Source: Bilabrum cf. latius (lineage: Eukaryota). Taken from it: a stretch of 64,000 nt of DNA. The translations under genes and the position numbers were made by a program. Each line of letters begins with the position of its first letter. The stretch's first letter is position 1. This document shows, in pieces, positions 1 to 64,000 of the stretch. Where the stretch lies: assembly GCA_965178125.1 (NCBI GenBank), contig OZ237745.1, positions 1,178,001 to 1,242,000 on the forward strand, in the 5' to 3' direction. The notes beneath the pieces were generated by a model that did no database searches, was not told the DNA's origin, and saw nothing but the letters and a program-made list of their open reading frames with translations.

Positions 1-2
1 GA

Positions 3-1664
3 TCCCTGCCTGGATTCGTGAACGCGACCTGGGCGGGCGGTCAGGGCCGGGGGCGGCGCTCCCCGTACGAGGGTAAGGTGGTGGTGGCTCGGCGGGGCAA
101 GTGCACGATGGTGGACAAGGCGCGCCGGGCTCAGGCCGCGGGGGCGGTGGGGCTGATCCTGGTGGACGGGGAGGCAGGAGACGTCGGCCTGGCGGGACTG
201 GCGCGAGCGCTGGAAGAGGTGCGGGAGGGGGATGACGGTGGGGATGGCAGTAGGGGTGGGGATGCTGCCACTACTGCGGGCTCCGCGCGGTGCGGCGGTG
301 AAGACGACCCCATGGCTGCATCGGGGCAGCACTCTGCGGCACTGGCGCTCGCCAGGAAGGACACCGCGGTCCTGGGCACCGTCGGGAGGCTGCCGCTGGA
401 AGGGGTCGGTCTGCCCCGGCCGGCGTACGATGACGTCGCCGACTTTGACGCGCAGGTGCACATTCCCGTGGCGGTGTTGTCTGGGCGGGCGGGGGATGCA
501 CTCCTAGCAGCTGGCACGCGAGGTGCGAGCGGGGCCTCGGTGCACATGCGGCCGGCCGATGGCTCGAGCAGCGCCCAATGGGACGAGGTCAGGGGACTCG
601 TGGCTGGCGCGCTGAGGCCCGAAGCCCTGCGCGCTGAGACGGAGACGGAAGCGGAAGCTGGGACGGAGGGCCAGGAGGGTGGGGGGAACACCCGGGGGCA
701 CCACGCCGCCCCGCTGCCTTTCAGGCTGCTCCGCATGCCGCTGCACCCTCGCGCCCTGAGGCGGCGAGCGGTCGGCCTCGTGAGGACACACCACCCGAGC
801 AGCGCCCGGGGAGACGCGGAGCGATGGGTCGCCGTGCAGCGGGCCGCCGTGCTCTGGGGCCCGTGCGCCGAAGATGCCCTGGAGGACGCCGAGCGCGAGC
901 TGCAGTTCGGGCCGGACGGGCGGGACGGCGGGCACCCGGAGGTTGACGCGGAGCTGGCGCAGATGGGCCGACGGGCCGTGCGTCGAGGGATGCACTCCGG
1001 CGACCCCGTGACTGCGTTTGCGTCTGCGGCCCTGCGGCCGGAGCAGCTGCCTCTGGCCCGCAGGTCTGCAGTCGGGCTGCAGGTAGGCGGCTCGGGCAGC
1101 GGGGGAAGTGCGCTTCTAGCGGTGGAGGACGGGAGAGGGGACTCGGCTGCGGCGGCGGGGCATGCTTTCTAGGGAACAAGCGACCCCTTCCGGTGCCGCA
1201 GCGAGAGCCTGACCATGCCGGTAGCGCTGCCGTCGTTTGACCGGAGCAGCAGCTTCCCGTTGGCCAAGCGGCTGCCCGCCCTCCTGCGGCAGCACGTGTG
1301 CCTGGAGCGGGCCCTCATGCACAGCGCCTCTGTGATCGGGGCGTACCTGCATGCGCAGCGGGAGGAGGAGGGGGGCGGCGGCAACGGTGTCGCGGGGAAT
1401 GGTGCGGGCGCGGGTGGGTTCAACGTGGAGGCAGATGGGGGCGCGGTGGAGGACCCGGGCGGCTAGGGCGCCATCGCTGCCGCAGAGGGCCCGGGCAGGC
1501 GCGCCCTGGTGCAGGCGGCTCGCAGGATGCTCGGGCTGGGGACTCAAGAGGCGCGGCGCGTGCTGGAGGGCTTCGAGCTGAGCTACGACTTGCTGGCGAG
1601 GAGTCCCAGGGAGGGGGCTTCCACGGCGGCAGAGCTGCTCCGCGGGGAGGAGGAGAGCGGTTGA
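3..1664 (+). CDS. PA (protease-associated) domain protein, 5'-truncated by the window; possibly the C-terminus of an EDEM/GH47-type protein
   Basis: PA motif GKVVVARRGKCTMVDKARRAQAAGAVGLILVD. ORFs 18..1172 and 1215..1466 are in one frame, joined through TAGs at 1170 and 1464, and end at TGA 1662-1664. Confidence 0.7.
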
Positions 1665-1863
1665 TCGCCGAGGCGGGCTGTTGTACTGAGATGCAAGCGC
1701 TTCTATTGTTCTAATTAGCCTGTGACTACTGGTTGGATCTCGGTGCTTCGGAGACGCCCGCAGTCCCGGAGACAGACGCTCAACAGACCGCATCACGAAG
1801 TGAGACCCCCTTCGTAGGCCTCAGGCCTGAACCGGGCTTGGGCTTGCCTCGCACACTCTTCTT

Positions 1864-5424
<3,561 letters not shown>

Positions 5425-5721
5425 GTAACCCCTGGTTACTCTGTCCCCACGAATCTTGTTTTGGAATGGCTAGCCACCGGCGGCGGCGCCGCGTGCCACC
5501 GTGACGTGATGAGTCCGACGAACGAGACGCGGACGACCGTTTGGCGAACTGATTCGTCCCTGTGGTCCGGCGAGTGGCTGCCTGCTAGTAGTGATTGTTT
5601 GCCAGTGGCGTACAGCCTGCCTACTGGAGGATGCTTTGCTAGCGAGAAGACAGCACATCGTGCAAGCCCGGCCAAACCACTCTTGTGCATCCCTGCCACT
5701 ACCAGTGGTGGTACTAGCACA

Positions 5722-8566
5722 TCACAGATCCACGCCCCGCTTGGAGGCCGCCTCCTCGTCCAGCCTCCTAAACCTCCTCTCCACCTGCTTGAGGTCCTCG
5801 TACAGGCTCTTTATCTTCCTCTCCCGCTGCATCCTCGTTCTCTGCGAGGCGCTGCGGCAGGGATTCACCGTCCTCGTGTGGTTGTCTTTGTACACGCGCC
5901 CAACGTGCTCGAAAAACTCTCCAAAGGTCTTCCGGATGTCCTCGAATCCGCCGCTCGCGTACTGCGCCGCCTCGCTGCCGACCGCAGCCAGCGCCGCGTC
6001 CACGCCCCCTGCCCCATCCGAGCCGAACCCCTGCTCGGCGATCGTGTCAAGGAAACCCCTGCCGAAGCCAAGCAGCAGCTTGTGCTGGAAGCTGGCGCAT
6101 CCCTCGTTGTCCGCCGCTCGCACGTACCCGCACAGCTCGTCGATCTCATCCGGCGTGAAGGTGACCTCGTACAGCAGCCGCCCGTTGCCCGCAGTGGCCA
6201 GATAGAGCATCAGGTTGAAGTCCCTGCAGCGCTGCAGCATCGAGTCTCGCATCAGGCCCATGGCCCCGCCCTCCCCAGTCACGGCCGCCTCGTCTTCCAG
6301 CCCCGAGCTGCCCTGCCGTCGCATCCACAGCGTCTGCAGGTTGCCTGCCACCCGGTGGTTCCTGTCGTCGATGGGGAACACGCGCCTCCTGCACTGCTGG
6401 ATGGAGGGCACCGCCTCCACCCCGTCCTCGTCCCGCCTGCTCATCACGGGGAAGTAGGACCGCAGCATGCGCTCGTAGGGCATGAGCTCCTTGATGCCCA
6501 CGGGGGTCACCAGGTACGCGCAGTCGAACAGCTGCGTGGTCAGCACGCGGTTCGCAAGGTCACCAGGCTTGGTGGCCACCACGGGCTTCTCGGATCGGAT
6601 CATGAACGGGTTCCTCGACTCGGCGGTGGCTGTCTTGGGCAGGCCGAGGTGACCTGCCCTCTGCAGCTGCATGCCCTGGTCGGATATCTAAAAGGCTTGC
6701 GTGGATCGGTACGTCTTGGTCACCTCCCCGCTCGAGTTGCGCAGCGTCTCGACCATGAACACGAGCGTGGTGAAGAACGGCCTCTCCGCCTGCTGCCTGG
6801 CAGCGAAGCACACCTCCGAGGCCGTCAGTGGGCTGGTGCCCTCCTCCCTGTAGGGCGCTGACATGAGGCAGCCCACCAGCTCCAGGCCCAGGTTGCCCGC
6901 GATCCTGTCCGCCCACCGCTGCTGCTCCTTCGAGTCGTCGTCCTGGAGGAGCAGCAGCCGCTGCTCAAACCCGAGCTGCCTGGGCTCGTACACGACCTCC
7001 ACCTGCACCAGGTCAGGACGCTTGCGATCGCCCACCACCGTGCCGTACAGCCACGCAAACCTCCTCTTGTGCAGCGGCTGGTCCAGGAACGACTGCAGGC
7101 TCACCTTCACGACCCTGGTGTGCCCGATCCTCTGGAAGCCAAGCGCCACTTGGTGCTTCTGCATCCACTCGCGCAGCTCACCCATCGTGCGGATGCTGGG
7201 AGGGGGGCGGTCCGCATCCGGGAGGTCCAGCTGCGCGGGATCCACGGGTGCATCGTCGCTGGCCGTGCCGTCATCGACCATGCCCTCCCCGCCCGCACTG
7301 CCCCCGCCTGTACCACCCTCGTCCTCCTAACCACTACCACCGTCGCCGTCGTAAACTCCACCCTTGCCGCCCCCGGGAGGAGTAGAGGAAGGGCCAGACC
7401 CACGAGCGGCGCCCGCTGCACCGCCGCTGGTGCCGCTACTGGCAGCAGCGCCTAGCCCCACTCCTTTGCCACTATCTGCACCCCCACCCCAGCTCCCGCT
7501 CCCACCAGCGCCCGCCGAGTCCCCTGCCCTAGCCCTAGCCCCCCCCGCCGCTGCCCCGCCGGCCGCCGCCTCCGTCGATTGCGCCGCCCGGGGCGGCAGC
7601 ACCTCTACGTCCAGCTCTGTGTTGAGCCTGTTATTCTCCAGCTCAAGCTGCGGCCCTCCCAGGTCCCCAGTGAGGGGCCTCTCTGGGTGTCTCCACCGGT
7701 CCAGGTCTGCCCTCCCGATCCCCCTCGGAGTGAGCTCGATCTGTTCCCCGGTGGGCCGGTGGCTGGCCTTGAACATGCCCCGCCACTTGACCGCCACTCT
7801 CTCCTGGAGCTGACCCACCGTCTCCGTCTCTGGCACCTCGAAGCGGTAGTCCGATTTGGGCGGGTCGAGGGCCGCGCGGGGCGTGAGGCCTTTGGTCCCC
7901 ATCGGGGGCGGGTGCAGCACGAAGGACACGATGCCGCGCGCCTTGCAGTCGTCCAGCTGCTCTTGGATCGTTCTGCGATGCGAACGACTCGCAAGAGGAC
8001 TAGACCTAGTGTGGAGGGCGCCCTGGTGCAAGCGGCGAACCGTTTTGCGACCAGCAAGCAGCCGGCAAAATGGCTCGGCACAACGGCACCATGTCGATAA
8101 ACAGGTGTAATATTGACAACTCACTTTGGTCGCGAAGCACCAGTTGCGCTTGGGGCCGGTGCAGGGGCAGCGGCTGGTGCCGGCGCGTCTGCTCGACTGG
8201 TCACCTCCTGGGGATGGCATATGTACACAAACGCCCCTTTCTGCGAAATTCCAGAAGCAAACCTCGAAAAAGAATCTGGTCAAATTAAATGGAGGCAGTA
8301 CCCTTGCAGATCCAACATAAATGGCTCACGCGAGGCGAAAAAGTTGCGAGCGGTTGGTTCTCATCCTCGGGCAGATCCACCGCAGGATCGACGTCATCGA
8401 CGGATTTATTATGAAGATTGTCGTTTGATAACGATGCAAATACGCGAGTTGGTGGATACGGCAGCTCCAACAGACTTTTGGCAGTGTTAAGAGTGTCCTT
8501 CGCCAGGTCCACCTTGATGCGCTGGATTGAGCCGTTTGAGAGCTTGCATCGAAGCACGTGTGACAT
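5722..8566 (-). CDS. NPL4: Nuclear protein localization 4 homolog (Cdc48/p97 cofactor); 3 exons: 8566-8330, 8240-8125, 7972-5722
   Basis: N-terminal UBL-like segment (MSHVLRCKLSNGSIQRI). MPN-like core with RFAWLYG, VEVVYEPRQ, LGLELVG, LTASEVCFAARQQ and AF(TAG)ISDQGMQL. Two GT-AG introns restore the frame. In-frame TAGs at 7327 and 6688; ends at TGA 5722. Confidence 0.88.
7973..8124 (-). other. Spliceosomal intron 2 of NPL4 (152 nt, phase 2)
   Basis: GTGAGT donor and CATCGCAG acceptor; splicing gives ...RPK|TIQEQ in frame. Confidence 0.75.
8241..8329 (-). other. Spliceosomal intron 1 of NPL4 (89 nt, phase 0)
   Basis: GTGAGC donor and TTTCGCAG acceptor; removes the TAA at 8285 and joins LATFSPR|KGAFVYI. 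Confidence 0.75.
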
Positions 8567-11530: not shown

Positions 11531-13522
11531 TCAGTCCAACCCCGCGGCATCCGTGGGGTAGAAGCTGCCAGCGGGGGTCGCGGTCTCAGCAGCCCCAGAT
11601 GCATCGCCCCCGGCTTTGTCGTCTTCGTCCGACTCATCCCAGTCCATGGTATCCAGCATGTCGTCCAGCATGTCGGAACCCTCCGAGTCCTCGGTTTGAC
11701 CCTCGCCCCGCGTCCCCTGGCCACCGGACCCAGCCGGGCAATCCACGGCTACCTGGGTTGGCGCTGCGGATCTCGACGACGACGTACCTGCCTGCTCCTG
11801 TGCGTCGGGGCAGCCACCCGGAGCCGCTGTTGTCTCATCGTCGCTTTGCCCTGGCTCGCCCAAGCTGTCCAGCAGATCGTCCAAGCCAGTATAGGCATCA
11901 GCAACACTCGCCCCCCCGGACCCGGACCCGGACCCGGACCCAGACCCAGCGGTGCAGCTGCCACCACCCTTCCCACCATCCGCTGTTGCCAGCGAAGATC
12001 CCGCCTCGCTGCCGCCCTGTGCCTCCCCCTCGTCCTGACTGTCCTGCTGCCCCCCCTGTGCCCCGTCTCTTCCCCACCGACCCAGGTCCTCCAACTCGGG
12101 ACCCCGTGGGCCCCCCACCAGCCGCATGAGCCGCTCAAGCGCAGGCCTCGGCCTCCCGTCCGACCCCGGCCCGTCGACTGCCCCGGCCCGCTTAGCCCTC
12201 TGGTACTCTGCCGCGACGAACCTCGCCAGGGCAGCCGCCCCCGCCCTCCGCACCGAGGGCAGCCCGCTGGCAGCCGCCGCCCGCCCCTCGAGGTCTCTCC
12301 TGGCCTAGTCCTCTCCGGACCGGATCGCCTCTTCCCGCTCTATCTAAGCACCGGGGCCCACCCCTGCCCCCGCACCCGCCCCCCGCCTCGCCCTGAGTTC
12401 TTCAAGATCTGGCCGCCCCGCCCGCTTCCGCTCCTTTGCCACCACCTTGCGACCAGCGTGCGCCGCCGCCTGCCGCAGCACCGCGGACACGATCTCCCCC
12501 GCCCCCGCCCCCGTGAAGCCGCCCCTCCCACTCCTCGCCAGCACCGCCCCCGCCGCCGCCGCCGCCCTCGCCTCGTGCAGCCGTCTCGAGAGCATCGCGC
12601 CCCCGCCCTGCCGCAGGGCCGCCACGCTGTGGCCTCTCGTTGCCAGGGACATGCCGGGGATGGGCACCTAATCGCAGCCCTCGGGGCCCTCGCACCACGC
12701 CTGCGGCCCAGCAGAGGCCAGTCGCGCGAGCTCGTCATCGTCATCGCCTCCTTTGCTCCTCGTCGTCGAAGAGGTCGCCTCGCTCGGCTGCTCGCGCGCC
12801 CCTCGCTGCATCGCGGACGACCCCATGTGCCCCAAGCTCCAGTCTCCCTCGATGCCAACTTCTCCAACGAACTTGGCGACGGCGGTGGCAGTGCTGCCCC
12901 CGGAGGATGCGCCCGCGGCCATTGCTCGCTCCAGGGCACCCGCGCCCCCGTCCAGCTCTGTAGAGAAGCAAGGATCCACAGAAATCCCGCTGATGAACGA
13001 ACGACTCAGGTAATTATTGAGCTGGCCATTTTGGGCATAAAACGCTTTGTTCCGCCTCATGTCAGCTTCAAGGCGAGCTGACGCAGTGGCCACGAGGTAC
13101 CGGCTCGCACGAAGCGCCGTCGAGGCAGCAGCCGAGTCGGCCGGCTTTAGTCGTGCAGCAGCACTGGATTGCCGTGCGTCTGCATGATCGAGCTGACCGC
13201 GCCATGTGAACGAGGGCGCGGAGCTGGGGAACGGGTGCCGGAAGAGTGGTTTCGAAGCCGCAGCGCGTGCCGCCTTCGCCGACAGAGAATCACTTGGCTG
13301 CACTACCGTGGGGATTGTAGGCTTATCATTGCTTGGAGATGGATTCGATGGCTTGCACCCCTTCGGCGCGTTTGGTTTGGGTGTCCTGCTGCTCGCAGCT
13401 GCTTTGCGCCAAGCAGCTGCGCTCGCTAGCGCTCGACGGGTCTCCCAGTCTGCGACCTGGTGCAGAAGCCATAGCGTGCAAGCAAGGCCAATCACAGCTG
13501 CGAGCGTAACTTCAAAAATCAT
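11531..13522 (-). CDS. Hypothetical protein with N-terminal hydrophobic anchor and acidic C-terminus
   Basis: ATG 13522 (MIFEVTLAAVIGLACTLWLL). Three same-frame ORFs joined by TAGs at 12668, 12344 and 12305; ends at TGA 11531. Confidence 0.65.
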
Positions 13523-13704
13523 CGTGTCTATGCACAAACTAGGGTCGGCGGTCGCCGTGCCCTTGGGCGGCTCCGGATTCAAGCCCAACCAGCGGCTGCG
13601 TGCGTGTGCCCAAGATCTACTGGGGAGAGAGTTCTTGCAACAACTGCGAGGAAGGCTCGACGCGACACAACCAAAACAAGGCATCCCGGTTTTCTTCAAT
13701 CACG

Positions 13705-46951: not shown

Positions 46952-48637
46952 ATGAATTCGGGCTTGGCGATAGTAGCATATTCATGTGCCCCAGTCGTTG
47001 TGGCGTTGGCAGCCTTCCTGGCTAGGTCTTGGGTCACTTATGGCTTGGCGTGCGGCCTTGCCCTGTTGCCGTACTTGGCAGCCAACAGCGGTCTCCTAGC
47101 GATGGATGGGGTGACAGGCTAGCTAGCTACATTGATAGTTGGTTGTTTTGCGGCTGCACTTCTAGTAATTGACGCATCTCGGTCTTCTTCGAAGGGGTCC
47201 GAGCAACAGCGGGCCGCCGAGCTGGCCCGCAGAGCTGCCAAGCACGAAACGACGGTAAGCGCCGCGGATCTGGGAGCAGCGCAGGGCGCAGAAGATGCTG
47301 CAATCGCACTCTACAGAGCATCGACCGTAGCTCTGGCCTCTAGCCAGGCCGCCGGAGGCTCGTCGTCCGCTTCGCGTCGCTCGACTGGGCAGGGAGCTGC
47401 CGGCTAGGACGCACCGCGCACGCCTGCCGGGGGCAGAGAGCTTGCATCGCTAGCTTCTGTCCAGAAACGCGCTCCACCTTCTGGTATTGTCACGAAACAA
47501 GCCGCCCCTGAGCCCAAGGTGCCCCGGTGCGGCCCCGACGGCGCCCCTTTGGTGCCCCCGACCCTACCCGCGGCGCTGGAGGCGTGCGCGCTGCCCAAGA
47601 CGGACCTGCCCGAGGGCAAGCACTGCTGGTGCCCCATGGACAGCCGCGTCTTCAAGCTGCGCGGCCGCACGTACGTCAAGGACCGCGTGAAGATCCCGGC
47701 CATGCCGCCTCTCTTCGATCTCGTGAGGGTGGAGACCTTCCGCCACTCGGAGCCACTCTACGACGTGGCGGGGCAAAAGGGGTCTTTCTTGCGGGCCGCG
47801 AGGGCGGCAGGAGACATACGCAAGTACCTGGTGGTGGTGTATTAGACCCCGGCCAAGGATGTGCACATGGTGCTCTACTTCGCGGTGCCCACGGATGCGT
47901 TCGAACCGGACGCTGTCCGCGACCGGATCGGATGGTGGAGGGAGCGGGCGAGGGGGCTGGAGGGCGGATCCGATCCCAAGGTGGAGGGCGAGACGGATGA
48001 GCTGCTGAGTGCCGCTGGGGCGCTGGAGCAGCGGCTGGCGGGGGCGAAGCGCGCCTGGGAGCGGTTCTGGTCAGATGACGTGGAGGGCAGCCCCTACCGC
48101 AAGGAGAGGTGGAAGGTCATCCCCAAGATCGCAGAGGGGTCCTGGTTCGTGAGGAACTCGGTGGGGACCACGCCCGCGCTGCTGGCCCGCAAGATCGAGC
48201 ACTCGTGGTCCAAGGGGACCGGGCCTGTCCCTGCTGGAGCTGGGGCTGGGGCTGGGGCTGCCTCTGCCTCTGCCTCTGCCAGTGGATCCGGTGCTGACAC
48301 TGCTGCAGGTGCCGGTGCTGATTCCAAGGGAACTCAGAGCCGCCGGGTGAAGAGCGAGGAGATGGGCTACCTAGAGATCGACTGCAACGTGTTCTCGAGC
48401 CAGATCGCCATGTACCTGGTGAGCCTGATCGATAGCGCGAGCGAGTCTCTGGTGATCGACCTGGCCTTCACAATCGAGGGGCGGGCCGAGGATGAGCTGC
48501 CCGAGGCAATCTTGGGGGCTGTGAGCCTGCGGTACATCCACCTGCCCAAGTGCAAGCTCATCGAGCCCGGTGATTACGGAGTGACGTGGCAGAGGAGCAT
48601 GCCGGAAGGGGCGCGGGGAGGTGGCAAGGCCTTCTGA
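46952..48637 (+). CDS. EDR2 C-terminal (DUF1336) domain protein with N-terminal hydrophobic segments
   Basis: FKLRGRTYVKDRVKIPA, VVVY(TAG)TP..MVLYF, RWKVIPKIAEGSWFVRNSVGTTPALL, YLEIDCNV and IDLAFTIEGRAEDELPEAILG. TAGs at 47120, 47405 and 47843; ends at TGA 48635. Confidence 0.88.
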
Positions 48638-48926
48638 AGGAGCATGCCGGAGGGGGCGAAGGGAGGCGCCGGGAGGAATCGGACTTCTTAAAGAAGCCAA
48701 TGTTTCGCGCCGGATTCTTTTGATTCGCTTCGACTTCTGGGCTGCTGCCAAGTTGTGCTCGGCAACAACGCGCTGGCTGGCTTCCGATTCCTCCACCTGG
48801 CGGAACCGGAATCGGGAGCTGCGCGTCACGCGCGAGGATCCACCTCGAACACCTGCGGCCGTGATTGATCCATCCAAATCTACTCGTACCCTCTCGTGTG
48901 CCAGAACTCGCCACACGAAACTTGAA

Positions 48927-51671
48927 ATGCCCTTGGGCCGCGCGTTTGCTGCCATCGCGGTGCTCCTGGCCAGCTCGCAGTTTCATCGAGCGGAAGCGTA
49001 CCCTGTCAGTTTCAACGCCGATGATGATAATACAGGCATCCATGTGAATATATTGAGGAACGCAAGGCCGTGGGGCACGCCAGGCACGCCTTGGGAGGGC
49101 AGCATTGATGTCGATTCGACCAGTGGATTCCCGGCAGAGGATGCCGGCGTCACGATCGATGTCCTGGTTTACAACTCCAGTCAGTCGTACTTGGATTCCA
49201 ACCCAGCGATTTAGTTTGCTCGTCCAGATGTGGCACAAAGGGCGCAGTTAGAGTACGGATACTAGCTGCGCGCGATGTGCACCCCAAAGGCAGACCCGCC
49301 GGTGGTCAACGTGCAGCCGCACAACTCCGGGGAGTCGTACAACACGACGTGGGACCCAGCAACGGGACTACTTACGAGTAGGATCGTCCCATCATCGGAC
49401 CGCACTTCCCTCATGCTCTCGTTCACGAACACGAGCCGCGGGTGCCGCGACATCGTGCTGGTGATGCCGGGCTTCGACCCCATCAAGGACGCGGCGGCGA
49501 TCAACCCCCAGTACCTCAGCAACATCGAGATGTTCAGCAAGTCCGCAGGAGCAGCCACGGGCGAGGTGTGGATGCGGACGATGGGCCTGCGCGCCACGAA
49601 CGGCAACCCCGAGGAGGACTGGGCCGACCGCCCGCTGCTCTCCTGGCCCTCGTTCCGGTGGGGGGTCCCAGTTGATCCCAAAGGGCCCCCGGGGTCGGAC
49701 TGCTCCAACTCGTCCTACCGAGGCACCTGTTTCACGGGCAAGCCGAACAAGGCGCACCCTTTGTTCGGAGGCGGTAAGGTGCTCGCCCACGGGTGGCCGT
49801 GGGAGGCAGTCGTCGACCTCGCCAATAAAGCAGGTCTCAGCCTCTGGATCAACGTGCCTGCCATGGCCACTGACGACTACATCGAAAATCTAGTGCGGTT
49901 AGTGGACGGGAGGCTGCACCCTGACCTGAACGTGATGGTGGAGTACTCCAACGAAGTGTGGAACGTGAGTCACTGAACGGACGATGACCGCCTGCCTGCA
50001 TGTGCTGGAGCTGCCGGCCCGCAACCGCGACCCCCATCATCCCCCCATGTCTCCCCCCCTCTTCCCCCCACCGTTTCTGCCGTCGGGGTTCGCCTTCTGC
50101 GGCCTGTCACGATCACCCACCTTGTGCGGCCTGTTACGATTACCCACCTTGTGCGGCCTGCTACGATTACCCACCTTGTGCGGCCTGTCACGATCACCCA
50201 CCTTGTGCGGCCTGTCACGATCACCCACCTTGTGCGGCCTGTCACGATCACCCACCTTGTGCGGCCTGTCACGATCACCCACCTTGTGCGGCCTGTCACG
50301 ATCACCCACCTTGTGCGGCCTGCTACGATCACCCACCTTGTGCGGCCTGTTACGATCATACCTTGTGCGGCCTGCTACGATCACCCACCGCCCCAGTGCT
50401 ACATCCATAGCCCTCTTCTTCCGCAGATGGAGTTTTCCCAGGCGCACTACCAGCTCTACATGGCCAACGCCTCCGTGGCAGTGCAGGGCGACCCCCTCGG
50501 CCTCAACTACACCACCCCCAATGGGGATGGGGGCGAAGGACCCATCCAGTGGGCGTACCGCCGCACGGCGTATGATATCGTCCGAGTCCAGGGGGTTATC
50601 GAGAGCACGCGGGGGGCTGGGGCACCACGGCCCGGCCCCAATGGGAGGTGGAGGCCTGTTCTGGCAGGACAGCTCATGGGCACACCTCAGCTGGAGGGAC
50701 TCAGGTACCTCTGGGAGTCTCGTGGGATCGAACCCGACAGCAAGCTGCATGCCACGGCCAATGCGCCCTACTTTGCCGTGTGGCCAGCCAAGTCTGCGAG
50801 CCGGGATAGCAGGAACTGCTGGTCCAACCTGACTGAGGACGCCGTGCTTGAGGGTCTTTCGACCTCTGTGGAGAGGAGGTTTGACCCGGCCTTGCCTCCG
50901 CGGGGAGACCACAAGCAGTTCATCACCTACGCCAGGCTGTTCAACCTGTCCGTGTTCTCATATGAGGGCGGCCCCGACACGTCCTGCTTCTTCAACCACA
51001 ACTCGAGTACAGAAGCAAAGAACGCAGCCAACCTGAACCCCAAGATGCAGCCCATCATCCAGCAGTACCTGCAGCACCTGCGTGCCATGGGGGAGTACAC
51101 GCTCTCGTACTTCACCTGCTGCACGGGGGCATGGAGCATGTACGGCTAGTGGACGCTGGCACCGAACCAGACCACCTACGCTGACGCACCCAAGCGGATC
51201 GGGGTCGAGGCGGAGCTCGGGGCCAGCGAACCTTCGCAGGGGTTCGGCGCGGCCCTGCCGGGCACTGTGGACGCCACGCTCGGGGCGGTGGATGCAGACG
51301 ACGAGGATCCCCCTTCCTCAGGGCCCTGGTACCACCCCTCCGTGGGCAAGTCGAGGTACTATCCCCTGCGGCCGGTTAGGTGGGGGCAAGGGGGGGCCAC
51401 CATGCAGCTGAGGCTCAACGTGAGCGTGCAGACGGGACCGGGGACCGTCAACGTGACCACGTCCGGCGACCCCTCCTCCTGGCAGTCGGTGAGGGTGCCT
51501 CTCGGGGAACAAGGGGGGTGGGCGCTCACAGACCCGGTGTCCATCGAAGTGCGGCCCCCTTTCACCACGCTGCAGGTCAGGATCGCGCCCCAGGAGCCGG
51601 GGCGGGCGGGGATGGCGGGGTAGGCTGGGAACGTGACGATCGGCGGGTTGGTGTTTGGGAGCAGCGTGTGA
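48927..51671 (+). CDS. Secreted clan GH-A glycoside hydrolase-like protein (possibly GH51-related); exons 48927-49964 and 50427-51671
   Basis: Signal peptide MPLGRAFAAIAVLLASS..AEA. WINVPAMATDDYI, VEYSNEVWN|MEFSQ (candidate acid/base Glu) and YEGGPD (candidate nucleophile). Intron 49965-50426 (GTGAGT..CCGCAG). TAGs at 49212, 49263, 51147 and 51621; ends at TGA 51669. Confidence 0.75.
50094..50389 (+). repeat. 27-bp tandem minisatellite (~11 copies, consensus CCTTGTGCGGCCTGTCACGATCACCCA) inside an intron
   Basis: Head-to-tail copies with few substitutions and no unique spacers. Confidence 0.95.
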
Positions 51672-51918: not shown

Positions 51919-53289
51919 TTAGTGCGCCGCGGACTCCACCACCGGCAGGGGCGGCAGCTCCACCGCCGCGTCCCCCAAGGAGGGGAGGATGTTCCTGCCG
52001 AGTGCGCTGCCCACCAGTTCCACCGCCGCATCAGCTGTCCTGTCACCGTCCTCCTCCGAGTCTGCAAGCTGCGGGTTCACCTCAACCATGTCCATGGAGC
52101 CCAGCAGGCCCGTCTCGAACAGCGACTCGCACACGTAGTGCGCCTCGCGGTAGCTCAGGCCCCCGGGGACCCTCGTCCCCGTGCTGGGGGCAACCGAGGG
52201 GTCGCACGCGTCGATGTCGAAGCTGAGGTGCAGCGGGCGAGGAGAGCTGCCCCCCGGCCCCGTCAGGTGCTCCACCGCCCTCCTCATCACCTCCCCGATG
52301 CCCAGCCTGTCCACGTCCGTCATAGTGTAGGCCCGGATGCCCAGCTGCGGGATCACCTTGCGCTCGTGGTCGTCTACGTCGTTGAGCCCGATGTACACGA
52401 TGCGGCTGGGGTGCAGCGCGGGCCACGCCCCGAGCTTGCTGATGCGGGGCAGCAGCGGGGCGGGCACGTGGCCCGACTGCAGCACCTGCCTGGCCACCTG
52501 CGCTGCCTTGCTGTTGCCTGCCTTGTCGGCCTTGTCCGCTGCCCTCTGGGCCTGCTCCAAGACGAACTTCTTCCACTCCGCCTCGTCCCACGGGGCGCTC
52601 TCTTCCCCCTCGCACATCCACTCGAGCCCGGGCATGGCCCTGGGGTCCGCCAGCCTCGAGGCGAAGGCAACCGGCATGCCGTGCATGTTGCCGCTGGGGC
52701 TCGCGCTCGGCGTGTTGATGTCCGCATGGGCGTCCACCCAGATGACGCCGGCGTCGGGGCGCGCGGCAAGGATGCCTGCCAAGGTGCCCATCCCGATGCT
52801 GTGGTCCCCTCCGAGCGTCAGCACGAAGTTGCCGTCCTCGGCGGATTCCTTGACTGCGTGAGCAATCCGTTCGCTTGTCTTTCCGACCGCCACAGAGTTG
52901 CGGCCACCCTCGGCGCTTGCGTCACCACGTCCCGGACGAACCGGATCAACGTCTCCCTAGTCAACGAGACGCCAGCCAAGACTTGTCACTGCGTTCCGCA
53001 GCCCACGTTGGCGTATCAGCTTCGGCCCTCGGTCCACTCCGTCTAGTGGCTAACCGAAGCTGAAAGGAGCCCCAACGACATGCACTGTCGAAGGTGCTTT
53101 CACACCGCTTTCGTCTTTGACCTACTCAGAGGGGACAAACGGCGCATCGCTGAAACTTCGGGATTGGCCGCCGCAGTTGCACATAGGAGTGTTCCGAAAC
53201 ACAGAATCTTTGCCTCTGGGCAACGTATGTGCGGACACTCTTCTGCTAAGACCTCGTACAGACCTGTACGATACTAGTCTAGAAAACAT
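51919..53289 (-). CDS. Arginase with probable mitochondrial presequence
   Basis: VVGAPFSFG(TAG)PLDGVDRGP, LGGDHSIG, WVDAHADINTP, SGNMHGMP, HLSFDIDACDP, TGTRVPGGLSYRE and DMVEVNP. Arg/Ser-rich N-terminus MFSRLVSYRSVRGLSRR. TAGs at 53122, 53050 and 52957; ends at TAA 51919. Confidence 0.95.
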
Positions 53290-53516
53290 ATCTCAACAAT
53301 GCGTTCAAGCTATTGACTAGATGTCAATTGTGAGCCTCGACATTTTCGTTCCGGTTCGTAGCAGAAAACTGCACGGTACAAAAAAGCAAACCGCTATTAT
53401 CAACATTCGAGAACTCTGCTCGATATTGGAGCGCAAGACGAGCATCCTGTTTATTTGTCATCTTTTTTCGGTACATAGTTCGCATGTTCAGCGGTGGAAT
53501 TGTGAATTTGACCGAA

Positions 53517-55468
53517 ATGGCCGATGGCTATGGAGATAGTGCGGTGAGCTGGTCATGACAAGCAATGTATGCCATGTACTCTCTGCTTGCGGATAGTGCA
53601 GCAGCGGTAGTACGTCTGTATGATGTCATTCGAGACTGTTTATTCCTTCTGCCGCGTCTCTTGAATTGCCCCGCAGTAGACGAGCGCGGACAAGCAGCTG
53701 AGATTTTCAGATTCCGGGGCCGGCGTCGACCTCGGCGGTAGCATGGGACCAGGTGGTCGGTCTCCCGGCGAAATCCCCAAGTCTATTCTTCGATCATATG
53801 TTCAACTTAATGGTCCGCACAGGGGGTCGCCAAGCTCCTTCGGTCGGGCTAGCTCGAGCCGAGACTCCCCTGACGCTGTTCGGCAGAGAAGGAAAGCGGC
53901 TGGCCAGGCCGCTTTGCACGCAATTGGAACACACAAGACGCCACCGCGTAGAAATCACGTGCCGCCAATGCTGCCCGACGCATTGACGCGTTCTTCTTTC
54001 TCGTCGTCTGCAGAGCGCTAGTCGGGTGCAGCCGAACCCCCATCGGGAGACCACGGGCAGGGCCCGCAGTCGCAGCTGCCGGCAGGCAAGCACAGCTCAA
54101 AAGACACCCCCATGGAGCATGTGAGGTAGGCGTACGACCCGCCGGGGAGTGCGACCATCTCGCTCTCCTCCTCGCCGCAGGGCGCCAGCAGCGGCAGAGA
54201 GAGAGAAGTGGCCAGGGCTGGACCCGGTGCACTGCACGACAGCGCCGTCCCGGGCTCTCCGAGCGGTCTCCGGTCTCCCCACGCCCCCCGACAGGAGCCT
54301 TCATCTTCCTTGCTGGCCTCTGGCGGCGGGAGCTCGCGCGGGGGATAGGCGGCGTAGCCCGAGTCGCCCGAGCCCGCCACCGGCCTGCGAGCTAGCGCGC
54401 ACGATGGATTGCGCTCGTCACACCTTGCGAGTGGACCCTCTGTTGGGGTCAGAGCCGGCGGAGGCATGGGTCCGGGGGGTCCTGGCGGCCTGCGCCTCTC
54501 AAATGGAGGCCTCGGATTCGGAATTGGAGCTGGGAAGGGGGTCGCAAGGGGGTGGCGGCACCAGGGCACGGCTGCAGGTCCAGGGGAGGAGCCCGCTGTG
54601 CAGCGGTCGCTGGGTCCCGGGGGTAGGCAGCCTTCCGTTGGTGGCCTGGGGTCGCAGGGTGCACTGCACGGCAGCGGCGCCAGTCGTGGTCCCGGCGCGT
54701 TGTGGCGGGCTAGGCGGGGCAAGGGCAGGGAGCTCGCTGCGAGGCGGGCGGGTGCATCGCACGGTGGTGCAGGCGGCGGGCAGCTGCCTGCACCGGCGAA
54801 AACGGGCGGGGATTCCAAGCCTAGGGCCCTGGGTGCCAGTGCCAGTGCCAGTGCCAGTGTCAGTGCCAGTGGCCGGGACATGGGCATGGGAAAGGGCATG
54901 GGCCGCGACTAGGACTAGCACTACAAAGATAATTAGGCGGGGATGCGTGGTAGGAGTAGTAGGGAGGCAGGTAGTGTGGAAAGAGGGAGAGGGGAAGGGT
55001 TGGATGCTTCGCTGCTGGATGCGGTGCTTGGACCGGAGGCGGGGGGGCATGCACCGCCACAAGCACCAGCAGCCCGTGAGCATGCAGGAGCTGCAGCACC
55101 CGCTAGAGCATCGTCCTAGGACCAGGCAATGCAGCGATTGGCAGGAAGAGGAGCAAGAGGGGAAGGTGCCCAGGGCGTGGGAGGGAGGAACAGCGCGGGT
55201 GCATGCGAGGACGAGAGCAATTAGAAGAGAAGGGATGACGATGAGGAGGAGGAGGGCGAGGATGGGGGCGAAGGGGACGGTGGGAGGGCCAGCGGCAGCG
55301 CTTCATCTCCTGCTCCTCCTCCTGCTCCTGCTGCTGCTGCTGGCGGGGCGATCCGGCACGGCTGGGTGAAGAGCCCTGGAGAGGGGCCTACTGGCAGCGG
55401 GAATGGTGGCTGGGTGCGGGCCTCGGCTCTTTGGAGGGACGGGCAGGGACCAGGAGAGGGGCAAGGGC

Positions 55469-55518
<50 letters not shown>

Positions 55519-55842
55519 CCTGGGCAAGACGTGGCGGTGTGCGACTCGGAGTCGAAAGTGCCACCGAGGCGTGTGACTGCCGCTTCTGGAGCCCACCACA
55601 CCGTCTCGGCCCCAGATGCCTCACGTGCTGCTGGGAGATCGGGCGATGCGGCAACGGACGAGGCAGCCATCGCGTCCGCCCGTTAGATGCACGAATTCCT
55701 GTGCGCCGCGACGCAGGAGCTGGCTGAGCGGCTGCAGACAGCTCTCGAGCGGGCGGAACGGGCAGAACGAGAGCTCGCAAGGAGTGAGAGGGCGCGGGAG
55801 TACTGGCGCGGGGAGGCTGTGCGGTTGAGAGACGAGCAGTAA
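53517..55842 (+). CDS. Hypothetical low-complexity protein with C-terminal coiled coil; probable exon 1 at 53517-53543 and intron 53544-53676
   Basis: One frame from 53677 to TAA 55840 with about 10 in-frame TAGs. GTGAGC donor and CCGCAG acceptor give a phase-0 join. Contains a (CAG)n tract at ~55471-55515. Confidence 0.6.
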
Positions 55843-58174: not shown

Positions 58175-58210
<36 letters not shown>

Positions 58211-61297: not shown

Positions 61298-61464
61298 TAT
61301 TCTCGGCTCTTAGTGGCAATGGGCGCATTGAATCGCACCCACGCCGTGGATTCCGAGACCTAGGTAGCCGGTTGATGTCGGTGACTATCCCAGGCTTGGG
61401 TCGATCTTGCCCGCAGGGAACGAGGGGAAGCCTGTCTAAGGCAGGCAGCCCCTAGCAATTAAGC
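61298..61464. repeat. 167-bp direct repeat, copy 2
   Basis: Identical by eye to 60981-61147. Confidence 0.95.
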
Positions 61465-63165
61465 AGGCCTTCTTAAAAAGACGAGCACACACATTCTCAC
61501 GGATAGTGGTGCATGCAGTCCACCCGACGTGACAGCCCATCGAATACTAATCGAGATACCTGCAAGAAGAGAGTGTTCCGCGAGACAGGTCACCAAGGGT
61601 GGTAAAAAGGCCTCCAATGGTGGTATTAATGCGGTTACGGCCAAATTAGGTTAAAAGGACGGCGACTCTTCGTCGAGAGTGGCACCCGGCCGCCCGTGAC
61701 AAGCGGCAGGCCGAGCACGCCTCATCTTCCCGACGGTGTGGGCAAGCAAGCGCCGCAGCTGCTGAAGAGCACCGCGACGCGCAAGCAAGCAATCATGAAA
61801 CAACACCAGCGCTACAGGTGCGCAGCTAGGCTGCTTTCTTCTCACATGTAATACAGGCGTCTCTCGGATCGGGTCGCTGTAACGTCTGCCGCTTGCTTGC
61901 GTGAGATCACGACAAAGCTGCTGCAAAGACCGAAATCAAGCAAGAGCATGCAATCGTACGCGATTGAAGCACATGGAACTCGATTGGATCGATGCGAATG
62001 TCGCACAGCTTTCCCAGGATACGGTCATGCCCCGCGGCCCGTCCGAGCGGCCCCGCCTTCTCAGGAGGAGCCAGACAGGCCAGAAATGGAGTCCCGCAGC
62101 CAGTATGACTGAGCGCCGGAGCCGCCTCCGACAGCGGCAAATTCCCTGATCTCGCAGTGGCGCGAATGCGACGGTACCCTCGGGATGGGGGCCCTCCGCT
62201 GACGTGTGGCCACTGCTTGTTAGCACGTGTTGATACATGCGGTCCGGCAAAGCGGCGCCGAAGCCAAAACTTACAGGTTTGCAGCAGACGAAACCTTGAG
62301 TGCGTAGTTATCGGACGGGATGTCACAACTGCCTGTGCCAGAAGAAAGGAAGCAGCATACCGTTGTAAAGAACGAATGGCGCAAGTAGCCACTGAAGCCG
62401 GCAATAGCTTCCAGGCAAGTGGAAAGTGTCGAGGTCCAGATTAGTGGGTCGGGTGCTATAGTGCCCCGCCCAACACCCGAGGACCCCGCTCGTTGGTCTA
62501 TCTTGGATCGCCCATGCCGCAGTACTTGCACCTAGGTTTGGCGCAGTCCCGCACGGAGAAGGGGCGTCCGAATGTGGCATTTCCACGCAATGCAAGGACT
62601 GAAACCTCTCACACGTTGGTCCGATGTATAAAGTGTGGTGATATGCCCTGCTTGACGCAAAAGCACTCGCAAGGAACACCAGCCGTCTCGCAGCCGCACA
62701 TTTCGTCGTCTGCAAGAAGATAGAAGTGTACACCCGCGCGTAGACCGAGACAGTGGGTGGTGCGGCTAGGTCGATAACGAGTGATGCATAAAAATGCACT
62801 ACTGTCGGCGCCAGTTAGCGCCGCTCTTGCCTTAGGGATAATTTAGGCAGAACAGCGACTCTAGATCTGAGGCCTTCTTTTTATCCATACGAAGGATCTT
62901 ACACTTGCATCCAGTCCACACAATCATAAAATTATTCCATGTTTATCTAACCGGAGAGGCTAGACAAGCATTCAGATGCTTCAGTCGAACATTTGGGACG
63001 AGAGAAGTGCGTCCTGTGCTTCAAACTTGCTGTCCGCTTTTATTGAAACAGAACGCAACAAATTCTCAAGCGAAGGTTCGGCGATCTCGCGGACCGGTCC
63101 GGTCACCACCGGACTCACCGGTGCATGCAATCCTCGTGGCGACAGAGCGCCGAGTCCGCTTATTC

Positions 63166-64000
63166 TCAGTCAGAATATGTCCATGAGGCAAGTCCCATGC
63201 CTTCCAGCTCCTCCCAGAACGACTCCGGGATCTCCTGGCCCTCCTTGAACACCGCCGAGTTCTCCTGCGCCATGGCCGCGCTGTCCGCCCCTGGGATCAC
63301 CGAGGCAACGCGAGAGTGCCGCAGCGGGAACGCTAGCGCGGCTGCCTTCAGCGACACTCCCCGCGCCTCGCACACGGCCGCAAGCTCAGCCGCCCGCTGC
63401 AGAGCGTACTGCGGTGCATCGGCGTAGTCCAGCTTGAGCTGGAAGGTCCCGTCCTCCCCTTGTTCCCTGGCCCGGCCCTTCTCCAGCAGCGACTTCCAGG
63501 CATCCGCCACCGAAGGATCAGCCCCCGCTGGTGGATCCCCTCCTCCTCCTCCTCCTCCCGCCCCCTGCTGCGCCCCCACAGCCGCAGCCACCAGCACCTC
63601 AGCCGGGGCAGCCAGCAGCCCGCTGTTGTAGGCGCCCCCCACCAGCACCCCCACGCTGTGGCTGTCAGTCTCCCGCTCGTCCAGCAGCTGCAAGAACCCC
63701 CTGCGCCCCTCCCACCTGGTCCTCGCCTCCTCCCCCCCCTGCAGTGAGGCATCGATCGGAGCAGCGTTCTCCATGAGGCTCATGCGCCCCGCCACCAGGA
63801 AGAAATCGAGCAGCGGGGACCCGTCCTCCTCCTTCAGGTCCAGGAACCGCGCCGTCCGGGCCGGGTCCAGCTCGTTCTGCCCTGCGCCCACGGCCTCCAC
63901 GCCCTCACCCTTGCCGCCGCGCATCCGCCCGAGGGCCGCCGCACCGCCCCCCTCGGTCAGCTCGGCGAAATGCTTCTCCGTGCTCTCCGGGGTCTGGTGC
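63166..64000 (-). CDS. Aldo-keto reductase (AKR15A / D-threo-aldose 1-dehydrogenase-like), 5'-truncated by the window
   Basis: DFFLVAGRMSLME, VGGAYNSGLLA, DYADAP, AVCEARGVSLKAAALAFPLRHSRVASVIPG and IPESFWEEL; ends at TGA 63166. Confidence 0.85.
   Translation of the reverse strand, partial: HQTPESTEKHFAELTEGGGAAALGRMRGGKGEGVEAVGAGQNELDPARTARFLDLKEEDGSPLLDFFLVAGRMSLMENAAPIDASLQGGEEARTRWEGRRGFLQLLDERETDSHSVGVLVGGAYNSGLLAAPAEVLVAAAVGAQQGAGGGGGGGDPPAGADPSVADAWKSLLEKGRAREQGEDGTFQLKLDYADAPQYALQRAAELAAVCEARGVSLKAAALAFPLRHSRVASVIPGADSAAMAQENSAVFKEGQEIPESFWEELEGMGLASWTYSD

What the first reader, a model, noticed from the sequence alone, without database searches (positions are those of the whole stretch)
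1..64000. Non-standard nuclear genetic code: UAG reassigned to glutamine
Seen: in 15 of 16 genes the reading frame runs through TAG (about 90 cases by manual count) into more of the same recognisable protein. No internal TAA or TGA was found once introns were removed. Independent conserved-Gln positions and poly-Gln runs point to Gln. Established: this equals NCBI table 15. UAG-only reassignment is rare in nuclear genomes and is known to me mainly from the fornicate Iotanema and a few ciliates, all unlike this GC-rich genome. Inference: this may be an undescribed independent code change, possibly in a stramenopile-like flagellate.
Basis: partly seen in the sequence, partly recalled or inferred. 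Interest (0 to 1): 0.97.

Follow-up and report, generated by a model that had tools for sequence, protein, structure and literature searches.

The report
Protist nuclear genome reads TAG as glutamine
This GC-rich stretch of a protist's nuclear genome, probably a relative of the marine flagellate Cafeteria, uses the stop codon TAG as an ordinary codon for glutamine while TGA and TAA still end genes, a rare kind of genetic-code change that I did not find reported for this branch of life.

Summary
Read from first ATG to stop, the 16 genes (18,735 codons) carry 98 in-frame TAG, 0 TAA and 0 TGA. The two off-frames carry 91-99 TAG, 20-39 TAA and 222-242 TGA. Fifteen of the 16 genes contain TAG; 13 end in TGA and 3 in TAA.

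The TAGs are not assembly or editing artefacts. A DNA-like run covers 34 of 34 TAG sites in a laid 20-kb stretch. Three RNA-like runs, which splice out three GT..AG introns, cover 24 of 34 without a changed letter.

The amino acid is glutamine. A syntenic metagenome contig from a related organism (L001, itself with 23 in-frame TAGs) gives 17 reliably aligned TAG sites. Fifteen pair with CAG/CAA in the other organism, one with CTG and one with GAG. Solved arginase and NPL4 chains also carry Q at two TAG sites.

The nearest named homologues of two proteins are from the stramenopile Cafeteria roenbergensis.

This is NCBI table 15 in a lineage where ten literature searches found no nuclear code change. 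The tRNA-Gln(CUA), eRF1 and 18S could not be examined because no genome is held.

The parts
3..1664 (+). PA-domain protein, 5' end off the window; 2 in-frame TAG; ends TGA
   Evidence: Pfam PA 5e-11; TAG list
1864..5721 (-). Protein with TRAF-type zinc fingers; 10 in-frame TAG in the stop-to-stop frame; ends TAA
   Evidence: zf-TRAF at E 5e-4, below Pfam's cut-off; TAG list
5722..8325 (-). NPL4-like protein; 2 in-frame TAG; ends TGA. Codon 546 (TAG) aligns with Q of a solved NPL4-like chain and with CAA in L001
8518..11433 (+). CWF19L1 orthologue (CwfJ_C_1 and CwfJ_C_2 domains); 4 TAG in the frame; ends TGA. Codon 889 (TAG) pairs with CAG in L001
   Evidence: Pfam 6.4e-24; PDB 8ro2_L1 2.2e-49
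11531..13699 (-). Frame of unknown function; 3 TAG; ends TGA; no Pfam match
13705..32295 (-). Giant HECT ubiquitin ligase without introns (MIB_HERC2, SPRY, UBA, HECT); 6,196-codon frame with 15 TAG; ends TGA
33016..34839 (-). Gln-, Ser- and Lys-rich protein of unknown function; 12 TAG; ends TGA
35922..37538 (+). PQ-loop membrane protein; 1 TAG; ends TGA
   Evidence: Pfam PQ-loop 1.6e-13
37795..43107 (-). Low-complexity protein (g9); 16 TAG, two of them inside a poly-Gln run; ends TGA
43412..46900 (-). Protein with a peptidase M23 domain and a weak APH match; 5 TAG; ends TGA; covered by RNA-like contigs
46778..48637 (+). EDR2_C-domain protein; 3 TAG; ends TGA. Nearest homologue is from Cafeteria roenbergensis, which has Q at TAG codon 356
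   Evidence: Pfam 3.4e-45
48585..51671 (+). Two-exon gene of unknown family; 4 TAG; ends TGA. Inferred intron 49965-50426 (GTGAGT..CAG) holds a 27-bp x 11 tandem repeat
   Evidence: the intron is not confirmed by RNA
51919..53292 (-). Arginase; 3 TAG; ends TAA. Codon 81 (TAG) aligns with the Q of 'GAPFSQGQ' in human arginase-2. Full-length RNA-like contigs in 3 runs show no changed letter
53665..55842 (+). Low-complexity protein with a poly-Gln run (g14); 11 TAG in the frame; ends TAA
56329..60780 (+). Gln-rich protein (g15); 9 TAG, one inside a poly-Gln run; ends TGA. A 139-nt GT..AG intron (56180-56318) just upstream is spliced out in 3 RNA-like runs
63166..63999 (-). Aldo-keto reductase, 5' end off the window; no TAG; ends TGA
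   Evidence: Pfam 3.9e-07
62332..62902 (-). Two GT..AG introns (62332-62611 and 62710-62902) removed in the RNA-like runs only; they lie downstream of the reductase stop

Best explanation
The window is nuclear DNA of a GC-rich, intron-poor eukaryote, most likely a heterotrophic stramenopile whose nearest named relative is Cafeteria. Its cytoplasmic translation reads UAG as glutamine and ends proteins at UGA (mostly) and UAA, which is NCBI table 15.

Shown here:
- UAG is an in-frame sense codon in mature mRNA.
- It corresponds to Gln.
- UAA and UGA are kept out of reading frames and close them.
- At least one related organism (L001) shares the trait, so the change is older than this species.

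Inferred from what is established for other UAG-only lineages (passages of PMC5304391):
- UAG is decoded by a tRNA-Gln with anticodon CUA, one base away from the ordinary CUG. Such a tRNA pairs with UAG but not with UAA.
- eRF1 has lost or weakened recognition of the G in the third position while keeping UAA and UGA.
- TAG codons then arose mostly from CAG by C-to-T changes. They are commoner where G+C is lower: 12% of Gln codons in the window overall, 4% (window) against 25% (L001) in the two shared genes.
For: Frame statistics: 98 TAG, 0 TAA and 0 TGA in 18,735 in-frame codons, against 91-99, 20-39 and 222-242 in the off-frames. A single frame runs 6,196 codons with 15 TAG.

RNA and DNA:
- Run X1 has even depth and covers 34 of 34 TAG sites in 44001-64000.
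- X5, X6 and X7 have depth over gene bodies only and are the only runs that skip three GT..AG introns.
- Their listed contig pieces cover 24, 18 and 13 of the 34 sites with 0 other letters.
- The 8 differing places in the table all lie at 50963-51092, away from any TAG.

Amino acid, from the syntenic orthologue L001 (59% G+C; the NPL4-like and CWF19L1 genes lie in the same divergent arrangement):
- There are 29 TAG sites in either sequence; 5 are unaligned and 24 aligned, of which 15 pair with CAG/CAA.
- Among the 17 sites with at least 55% local identity: 13 CAG, 2 CAA, 1 CTG, 1 GAG. That is 88%, against 70% conservation for ordinary Gln in the same 1,094 columns. The binomial p is about 6e-17 at a 6% chance rate.
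- Example: L001 reads 'KLPY-TAG-FGREV' where the window has CAG and human CWF19L1 has 'PLQFGREV'.

Amino acid, from other homologues:
- Arginase TAG-81 aligns with Q in human arginase-2 (E 7e-76).
- NPL4 TAG-546 aligns with Q in 9m3z_G.
- EDR2_C TAG-356 is Q in the nearest homologue.

Standard-code gene calls of relatives stop exactly at such sites: P0014, P0163 and P0164 end at 'KLPY', and P0066 ends at 'FYKV'.

Stops: 13 genes end in TGA and 3 in TAA. CWF19L1 of L001 ends in TAA.

Lineage:
- The top EDR2_C hit is Cafeteria roenbergensis (E 8.7e-57).
- After the near relatives, CWF19L1 hits a cluster that holds Cafeteria proteins, then Chrysoparadoxa, then a cluster with a MAST-4 protein.
- In the quick tree, window+L001 (support 100) sit in an 8-row clade (95) with Cafeteria.
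Against: No tRNA gene lies in the window or in L001 and no genome is held. The decoding tRNA and eRF1 are therefore unseen, and there is no protein-level evidence.

The zero count of in-frame TAA and TGA is partly circular, because the frames were delimited by those codons.

Two of the 17 reliable orthologue sites pair with Leu or Glu codons. The 7 sites in poorly aligned, low-complexity stretches pair with ATT, GAA, GAG, GCT, GAT, GGT and GGG.

Several TAG sites align with residues other than Q in distant solved homologues: F (arginase codon 112), K and M (CWF19L1 codon 889), S and D (M23). In 7 of the 8 EDR2_C homologues the aligned residue is V.

A neighbour-composition likelihood test did not pick Gln; Lys scored best.

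The sequencing-run tool labels the RNA nature of X5-X7 a guess and calls X5 'probably DNA'.

The lineage rests on two proteins at 39-49% identity and one quick single-gene tree. Lower CWF19L1 hits are a moss and a fish.

Whether UAG also terminates some genes cannot be told from these data.
Confidence: 0.9

Rival explanations
1. UAG has a double meaning: glutamine inside genes, but still a terminator near some 3' ends. Context-dependent codes of this kind are described for some ciliates, and for UAA in Blastocrithidia nonstop.
For: My frames read through every TAG by construction, so a terminal TAG would be hidden. Two genes have a TAG a few codons before the TGA or TAA that I took as the stop: g9 codon 1766, five codons before TGA, and L001 CWF19L1 'FTM-TAG-CAA-GAA-TAA'.
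Against: At the L001 site the window has CAA (Gln) and its protein goes on for about 30 more residues, so a sense reading fits. TAG occurs at the off-frame rate all along the genes. In the published UAG-only cases no dual use was found (passages of PMC5304391 and PMC11687900).
Confidence: 0.07
2. Both UAG and UAA are reassigned to glutamine (table 6, the commonest variant). Under this reading UAA is simply too rare in this GC-rich genome to be seen in frame.
For: TAA is rare in every frame: 20 and 39 in the two off-frames of 18,735 codons. My frames were cut at TAA by definition.
Against: There are 0 in-frame TAA where 20-39 would be expected without constraint. Three window genes and L001's CWF19L1 end at TAA. 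The arginase TAA lies about 20 residues beyond the end of the alignment to solved arginases, with about 210 nt of transcript after it.
Confidence: 0.03
3. UAG is a sense codon but stands for another amino acid (Glu, Leu, Lys, Tyr or Ser), as in other UAG-only lineages.
For: Three of the 24 aligned orthologue sites pair with Glu codons (only one of them reliably aligned) and one with CTG. The neighbour-composition test favoured Lys. UAG=Leu and UAG=Ser lineages exist (passage of PMC11687900).
Against: Fifteen of the 17 reliably aligned sites pair with CAG/CAA; the other two pair with one Leu and one Glu codon. Solved homologues carry Q at arginase codon 81 and NPL4 codon 546. TAG sits inside CAG/CAA runs.
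Confidence: 0.02
4. The in-frame TAGs are artefacts: assembly or sequencing errors, RNA editing back to CAG, unspliced mini-introns, or decaying pseudogenes.
For: None found. The only formal weakness is that the RNA nature of runs X5-X7 is a guess of the tool.
Against: The same letters stand in contigs of four runs from three studies, with no difference at any TAG. Three real introns are removed in X5-X7 while the TAGs stay. The frames stay open for up to 6,196 codons. An independent metagenome contig of a relative has 23 more in-frame TAGs in the same two genes.
Confidence: 0.01

Closest known systems
NCBI table 15 as used by the fornicate Iotanema spirale (PMC5304391; abstract and passages read)
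   Same: UAG encodes Gln while UAA and UGA stay terminators. UAG is a minority Gln codon: about 8% there, 12% here (98 of 823). A tRNA-Gln(CUA) is the predicted decoder in both.
   Different: The lineages are unrelated: an anaerobic metamonad against a probable stramenopile. Iotanema ends genes mainly with UAA (104 of 119 complete transcripts), whereas here TGA ends 13 of 16 genes. The Iotanema evidence came from transcripts, with an eRF1 T32G change noted; here eRF1 could not be seen.
UAG-to-Gln in the ciliates Hartmannula sinica, Trochilia petrani and Protocruzia tuzeti (PMC11687900; passages read)
   Same: The same codon, the same amino acid and UAA retained as a stop. These are independent recent origins, and most genes are affected.
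   Different: They are ciliates. The window shows long multi-gene DNA with genes of up to 18.6 kb and 66% G+C, and its nearest named homologues are not ciliate.
UAR-to-Gln codes (table 6) of many ciliates, hexamitin diplomonads, ulvophyte algae, Streblomastix and Amoeboaphelidium (listed in a passage of PMC11687900)
   Same: A stop-to-Gln change through a one-base change in the tRNA-Gln anticodon.
   Different: There UAA is reassigned too. Here TAA is absent from 18,735 in-frame codons and closes 3 of 16 genes.
UAG-only changes to other residues: Leu in the rhizarian exLh and in TARA phyllopharyngean MAGs, Ser in Scotinosphaera (passage of PMC11687900)
   Same: UAG is decoupled from UAA.
   Different: The amino acid differs. 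Here 15 of 17 reliable sites are Gln and only 1 is Leu.
Cafeteria roenbergensis (bicosoecid stramenopile), the nearest named relative by protein similarity
   Same: It gives the best named hit for EDR2_C (E 8.7e-57; 49% identity over the aligned part) and for CWF19L1 (43%). It groups with the window in a single-gene tree. That its genome is also very GC-rich and intron-poor is my recollection, not a result of any call.
   Different: It is distant, at under 50% identity. Its CWF19 gene models read Q in 'PLQFGR' and reach the natural C-terminus under the standard code. I did not test its code.
Giant-virus genomes that read TAG as Gln
   Same: The same code (TAG=Gln; TAA and TGA stop) in viruses of eukaryotes whose hosts are unknown.
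   Different: Those are viral genomes. No sequence link to this window was sought or found.

Membership tests
NCBI translation table 15 (UAG = Gln; UAA and UGA = stop) | UAG occurs in frame inside real protein-coding genes at the rate of a sense codon | tested here: met
   98 in-frame TAG in 18,735 codons, against 91 and 99 in the off-frames; 15 of 16 genes have at least one
NCBI translation table 15 (UAG = Gln; UAA and UGA = stop) | UAG is present in the mature mRNA (not edited, not spliced out) | tested here: met
   24 of 34 TAG sites in 44001-64000 lie in contig pieces of intron-spliced, gene-limited runs X5-X7 with 0 other letters; the other 10 sites are not covered by the listed pieces. 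That these runs are RNA is inferred from splicing and the depth pattern.
NCBI translation table 15 (UAG = Gln; UAA and UGA = stop) | UAG sites correspond to glutamine in homologues | tested here: met
   15 of 17 reliably aligned sites pair with CAG/CAA in orthologue L001. Q at arginase codon 81 and NPL4 codon 546 in solved chains. Other distant homologues show variable residues.
NCBI translation table 15 (UAG = Gln; UAA and UGA = stop) | UGA remains a terminator | tested here: met
   0 in-frame TGA against 222 and 242 in the off-frames; 13 of 16 genes end in TGA
NCBI translation table 15 (UAG = Gln; UAA and UGA = stop) | UAA remains a terminator | tested here: met
   0 in-frame TAA against 20 and 39 in the off-frames; 3 of 16 genes and L001's CWF19L1 end in TAA; the arginase TAA sits at the expected C-terminus. 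Numbers are small because TAA is rare at 66% G+C.
NCBI translation table 15 (UAG = Gln; UAA and UGA = stop) | UAG is never used as a terminator | tested here: inconclusive
   The frames read through TAG by construction. Two genes have a TAG 2-5 codons before the assumed stop.
NCBI translation table 15 (UAG = Gln; UAA and UGA = stop) | A tRNA-Gln with anticodon CUA is encoded | not testable with these tools
   No tRNA gene in the window or in L001; no whole genome is held
NCBI translation table 15 (UAG = Gln; UAA and UGA = stop) | eRF1 N-domain altered at the positions that read the third stop-codon base | not testable with these tools
   eRF1 is not in the window and no genome is held
Stramenopiles (heterotrophic lineages near bicosoecids and MAST groups) | Nearest homologues of conserved proteins are stramenopile | tested here: met
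   2 of 2 proteins tested: the EDR2_C top hit is Cafeteria. CWF19L1 hits a Cafeteria cluster, then Chrysoparadoxa, then a MAST-4 cluster, ahead of Cyanophora, a moss and a fish. Tree clade with Cafeteria, SH-aLRT 95.
Stramenopiles (heterotrophic lineages near bicosoecids and MAST groups) | 18S rRNA or multi-gene phylogeny places it there | not testable with these tools
   No rRNA or other Rfam family in the window; no genome is held

The most novel reading that the evidence does not exclude
A whole, so far undescribed clade of GC-rich heterotrophic stramenopiles reads UAG as glutamine. At least three sequence-distinct members are visible: the window organism, the organism of L001 at 64-71% protein identity, and the source of P0066. 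This would be the first nuclear genetic-code change in stramenopiles. It would also be an origin in a high-GC genome where TGA is the main stop. Flagellates like Cafeteria are known hosts of giant viruses (recalled, not from a call). Such a clade would therefore be a concrete candidate host for the TAG=Gln giant viruses seen elsewhere in this scan.
Probability: 0.45. Interest if true: 0.85.

Novelty: new member of a known kind. Interest (0 to 1): 0.74.

Why it matters
Nuclear code changes are rare, and cases where UAG and UAA are decoupled are rarer. The passages I read name Iotanema, four ciliate lineages, one rhizarian and Scotinosphaera.

A further independent origin in a different supergroup and in a GC-rich genome would help in three ways:
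- It adds a data point for testing how stop codons are captured: the role of stop-codon usage bias, of tRNA-Gln(CUG) gene copies and of eRF1 changes.
- It seems to come from organisms that are in culture or at least repeatedly sequenced. DNA-like and RNA-like runs from three studies hold it, so the tRNA, eRF1, proteome and termination could be studied directly.
- It supplies a plausible kind of host for giant viruses that use the same code.

There is also a practical consequence. Standard-code gene callers truncate this clade's proteins in public collections. P0014, P0163, P0164 and P0066 end exactly at TAG sites.

Tried and rejected
Searches and look-ups that gave nothing:
- No whole genome is held, so genome-wide codon inference and searches for tRNA, eRF1 and 18S were impossible.
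- ARAGORN found no tRNA in the window or in L001.
- Rfam found nothing in the window.
- Word-based protein searches with the giant ligase (residues 1197-6196) and with the NPL4-like protein returned no hit, probably because low-complexity words swamped them.
- A metagenome scan with the ligase C-terminus found no relative.
- A scan of prokaryote genome contigs with the CWF19L1 alignment found none.
- The two exons of the unknown-family gene had no solved relatives.
- This scan held no earlier notes on this genome or on look-alikes.

Results that were uninformative or inconclusive:
- The protein atlas returned only generic CwfJ clusters, useless for lineage.
- A likelihood test on the residues flanking TAG was inconclusive. 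Lys scored best. The Gln share of TAG neighbours is 6.1%, against a 3.9% background and 8.7% around ordinary Gln.
- Paralogy of g9 and g15 is marginal, a 36-residue match at E 0.005, so it was not used.

Sequencing runs: no RNA holder is listed on record. I read X5-X7 as RNA only from splicing and the depth pattern.

Considered and rejected:
- Green alga or plant: the arginase is of the animal/fungal type (E 7e-76 to arginase-2, against 1.9e-9 for chain 6vss_A). That 6vss is a plant arginase is my recollection.
- Kinetoplastid: cis-spliced GT..AG introns are present.
- Ciliate: the DNA carries long multi-gene stretches at 66% G+C.

Papers: ten searches and passages of five papers gave no report of a nuclear code change in a stramenopile. 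Supplementary tables of these papers were not consulted and may list further taxa.

Full report
**What is in the window**

The 64-kb window is 66% G+C (57-74% per 4-kb bin) and is eukaryotic nuclear DNA. It holds 16 protein genes:
- a PA-domain protein;
- a protein with a weak TRAF-type zinc-finger match, below Pfam's cut-off;
- a weakly matching NPL4-like protein, also below Pfam's cut-off;
- a CWF19L1 orthologue;
- a 6,196-codon HECT ligase with MIB_HERC2, SPRY and UBA domains;
- a PQ-loop transporter;
- an M23-peptidase protein;
- an EDR2_C protein;
- an arginase;
- an aldo-keto reductase;
- six proteins without a family.

Introns are few and conventional. Three GT..AG introns of 139, 280 and 193 nt are documented by spliced contigs. 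One more of 462 nt is inferred from sequence. There is no tRNA and no Rfam family.

**The observation**

Under the standard stops the ligase gene breaks into pieces of at most 1,017 aa. With TAG read through it is one frame of 6,196 aa.

Over all 16 genes, from first ATG to stop, there are 18,735 codons. Frame 0 holds 98 TAG, 0 TAA and 0 TGA. Frames +1 and +2 hold 91 and 99 TAG, 20 and 39 TAA, and 222 and 242 TGA. TAG is thus as common in frame as out of frame, while the other two stops are excluded.

The exclusion is partly built into how I delimited frames. The frame lengths are not. In the ligase gene each off-frame holds 54 TGA+TAA over 6,096 codons.

Fifteen of the 16 genes contain TAG, with 100 in the stop-to-stop frames. 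Thirteen genes end in TGA and three in TAA.

**Not an artefact**

One search of public runs found four runs of one sample holding all sampled words of the query stretch (14000-22000). Three further runs from two other studies held 53-98%.

I laid four runs on 44001-64000:
- X1 behaves as DNA: even depth, everything covered, no splicing.
- X5, X6 and X7 behave as RNA. Depth is up to 98 over the arginase and g15 genes and near zero between genes.
- X5-X7 alone skip three GT..AG introns.

The tool itself calls their RNA nature a guess, and calls X5 'probably DNA'. My reading rests on the splicing and the depth pattern.

Of the 34 in-frame TAG sites in that stretch, X1's listed pieces cover 34. 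X5 covers 24, X6 18 and X7 13, and at least one of those three covers 24. Every piece has 0 other letters. The only differing places in the table (8, at 50963-51092) touch no TAG.

So transcripts carry UAG. Editing, mis-assembly and hidden mini-introns are excluded for the 24 sites covered by the RNA-like runs; the other 10 have only DNA-like cover.

**Which amino acid**

Distant solved homologues gave a mixed picture:
- Q at arginase codon 81 ('GAPFSQGQ' of human arginase-2, E 7e-76);
- Q at NPL4 codon 546 ('EAFQMSD');
- F, K, M, S or D at more variable positions.

The nearest EDR2_C homologue has Q at the TAG site, and seven others have V. A flank-composition test was inconclusive.

The decisive evidence came from relatives. 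An exhaustive HMMER search with CWF19L1 returned fragments at 88%, 80% and 64% identity (P0013, P0014, P0066). P0014 led to a 5,552-nt metagenome contig, L001. L001 carries the same divergent NPL4-like/CWF19L1 gene pair, is 59% G+C, and has 14 and 9 in-frame TAGs in the two genes.

A codon-by-codon comparison of the two organisms covers 29 TAG sites:
- 5 are unaligned.
- Of the 24 aligned, 15 face CAG or CAA.
- At the 17 sites with at least 55% local identity the partners are 13 CAG, 2 CAA, 1 CTG and 1 GAG.

That is 88% agreement. Ordinary Gln is conserved at 70% in the same 1,094 columns.

One example: L001 reads K-L-P-Y-TAG-F-G-R-E-V where the window has CAG and human CWF19L1 has Q.

Standard-code gene calls of the relatives end exactly at such sites. 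TAG also sits inside CAG/CAA runs.

I put glutamine at about 95% given that TAG is sense.

**TAA and TGA**

Both are absent in frame and both close genes. The arginase ends at TAA about 20 residues past the end of the alignment to solved arginases, with about 210 nt of transcript after it. L001's CWF19L1 ends at TAA. This makes the code table 15, not table 6.

Whether UAG also terminates somewhere cannot be settled here. Two genes have a TAG just before the assumed stop.

**Mechanism (inferred)**

As argued for Iotanema and the rhizarian exLh (passages of PMC5304391), only a CUA anticodon reads UAG while ignoring UAA. A one-base change of a tRNA-Gln(CUG) gene copy is the likely source. eRF1 is expected to have weakened recognition of UAG.

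TAG then accumulates from CAG. It makes up 12% of Gln codons in the window (98 of 823). In the two shared genes it makes up 4% in the window against 25% in the less GC-rich L001. None of these components could be inspected.

**Lineage**

- The best EDR2_C hit is Cafeteria roenbergensis (E 8.7e-57; 49% identity over the aligned part).
- For CWF19L1, the hits after the near relatives are a cluster holding Cafeteria proteins (43%), Chrysoparadoxa australica and a cluster with a MAST-4 protein. Cyanophora, a moss and a fish come after them.
- A quick single-gene tree joins window and L001 (support 100) inside an 8-row clade (95) with Cafeteria, next to the MAST-4 group.

This points to a heterotrophic stramenopile. 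I give that about 65%. It is not a placement.

**Known or new**

The code itself is known. UAG-only-to-Gln is reported for Iotanema spirale, Protocruzia tuzeti, Hartmannula sinica and Trochilia petrani (passages).

Ten full-text searches and a 2024 stramenopile review (its only hit is a reference on mitochondrial codes) gave no nuclear code change in stramenopiles. The library lacks most subscription journals, and I did not see supplements. An existing description cannot be excluded, since several studies have sequenced this organism.

I file the finding as a new member of a known kind, with high interest.

**Link to earlier notes of this scan**

Three earlier notes (e1-5306704, e1-5483556, e1-5483507) report giant viruses that read TAG as Gln and have unknown hosts. 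A giant-virus catalogue paper states that all confirmed giant-virus isolates came from hosts with the standard code (passage of PMC13524828). A stramenopile clade with table 15 would be a candidate host type. This was not tested.

Noticed in passing
window 13705-32295 (-): A single uninterrupted 18.6-kb reading frame encodes a HECT ligase of about 6,100-6,200 residues with MIB_HERC2, SPRY and UBA domains. Most of it is Ala/Gly/Ser-rich low-complexity sequence. No relative of comparable length was found by the word-based search.
   Followed up: partly
window 50093-50389: A 27-bp unit is repeated 11 times (93% matches). It lies inside the inferred 462-nt intron (49965-50426) of the two-exon gene of unknown family.
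   Followed up: partly
window 2485-2588: A perfect hexamer repeat (TGTGCC x 17) lies inside the coding frame of the TRAF-zinc-finger gene, where it encodes a run of Gly-Thr dipeptides.
   Followed up: no
window 62332-62902 (-): Two spliced GT..AG introns lie downstream of the aldo-keto reductase stop codon. No open frame crosses them, so they belong to a spliced 3' UTR or to a separate non-coding transcript.
   Followed up: partly
window 54673-55339 and 58675-59341: Summed contig depth jumps in all four runs (to 482 in the DNA-like run), with many false 'joints' between 54.7, 58.0, 58.7 and 63.5 kb. These are short GC-rich low-complexity coding repeats shared with many other places in the genome.
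   Followed up: no
window 41908-43107 (-) and 56329-57400 (+): The N-terminal parts of two otherwise unrelated Gln-rich proteins (g9, g15) share a short motif ending in 'R-x-LNFDN' (36 residues, E 0.005). This may be a small lineage-specific domain.
   Followed up: partly
L001 1-5552 versus window 5722-11433: The divergent NPL4-like/CWF19L1 gene pair with its short shared upstream region is conserved between two organisms that differ by about 30-35% in protein sequence and 5-7 points of G+C.
   Followed up: partly
window 32300-35900: This is the lowest-GC part of the window (57% in the 32-36 kb bin). It holds the gene with the densest TAG use, 12 in about 600 codons.
   Followed up: no
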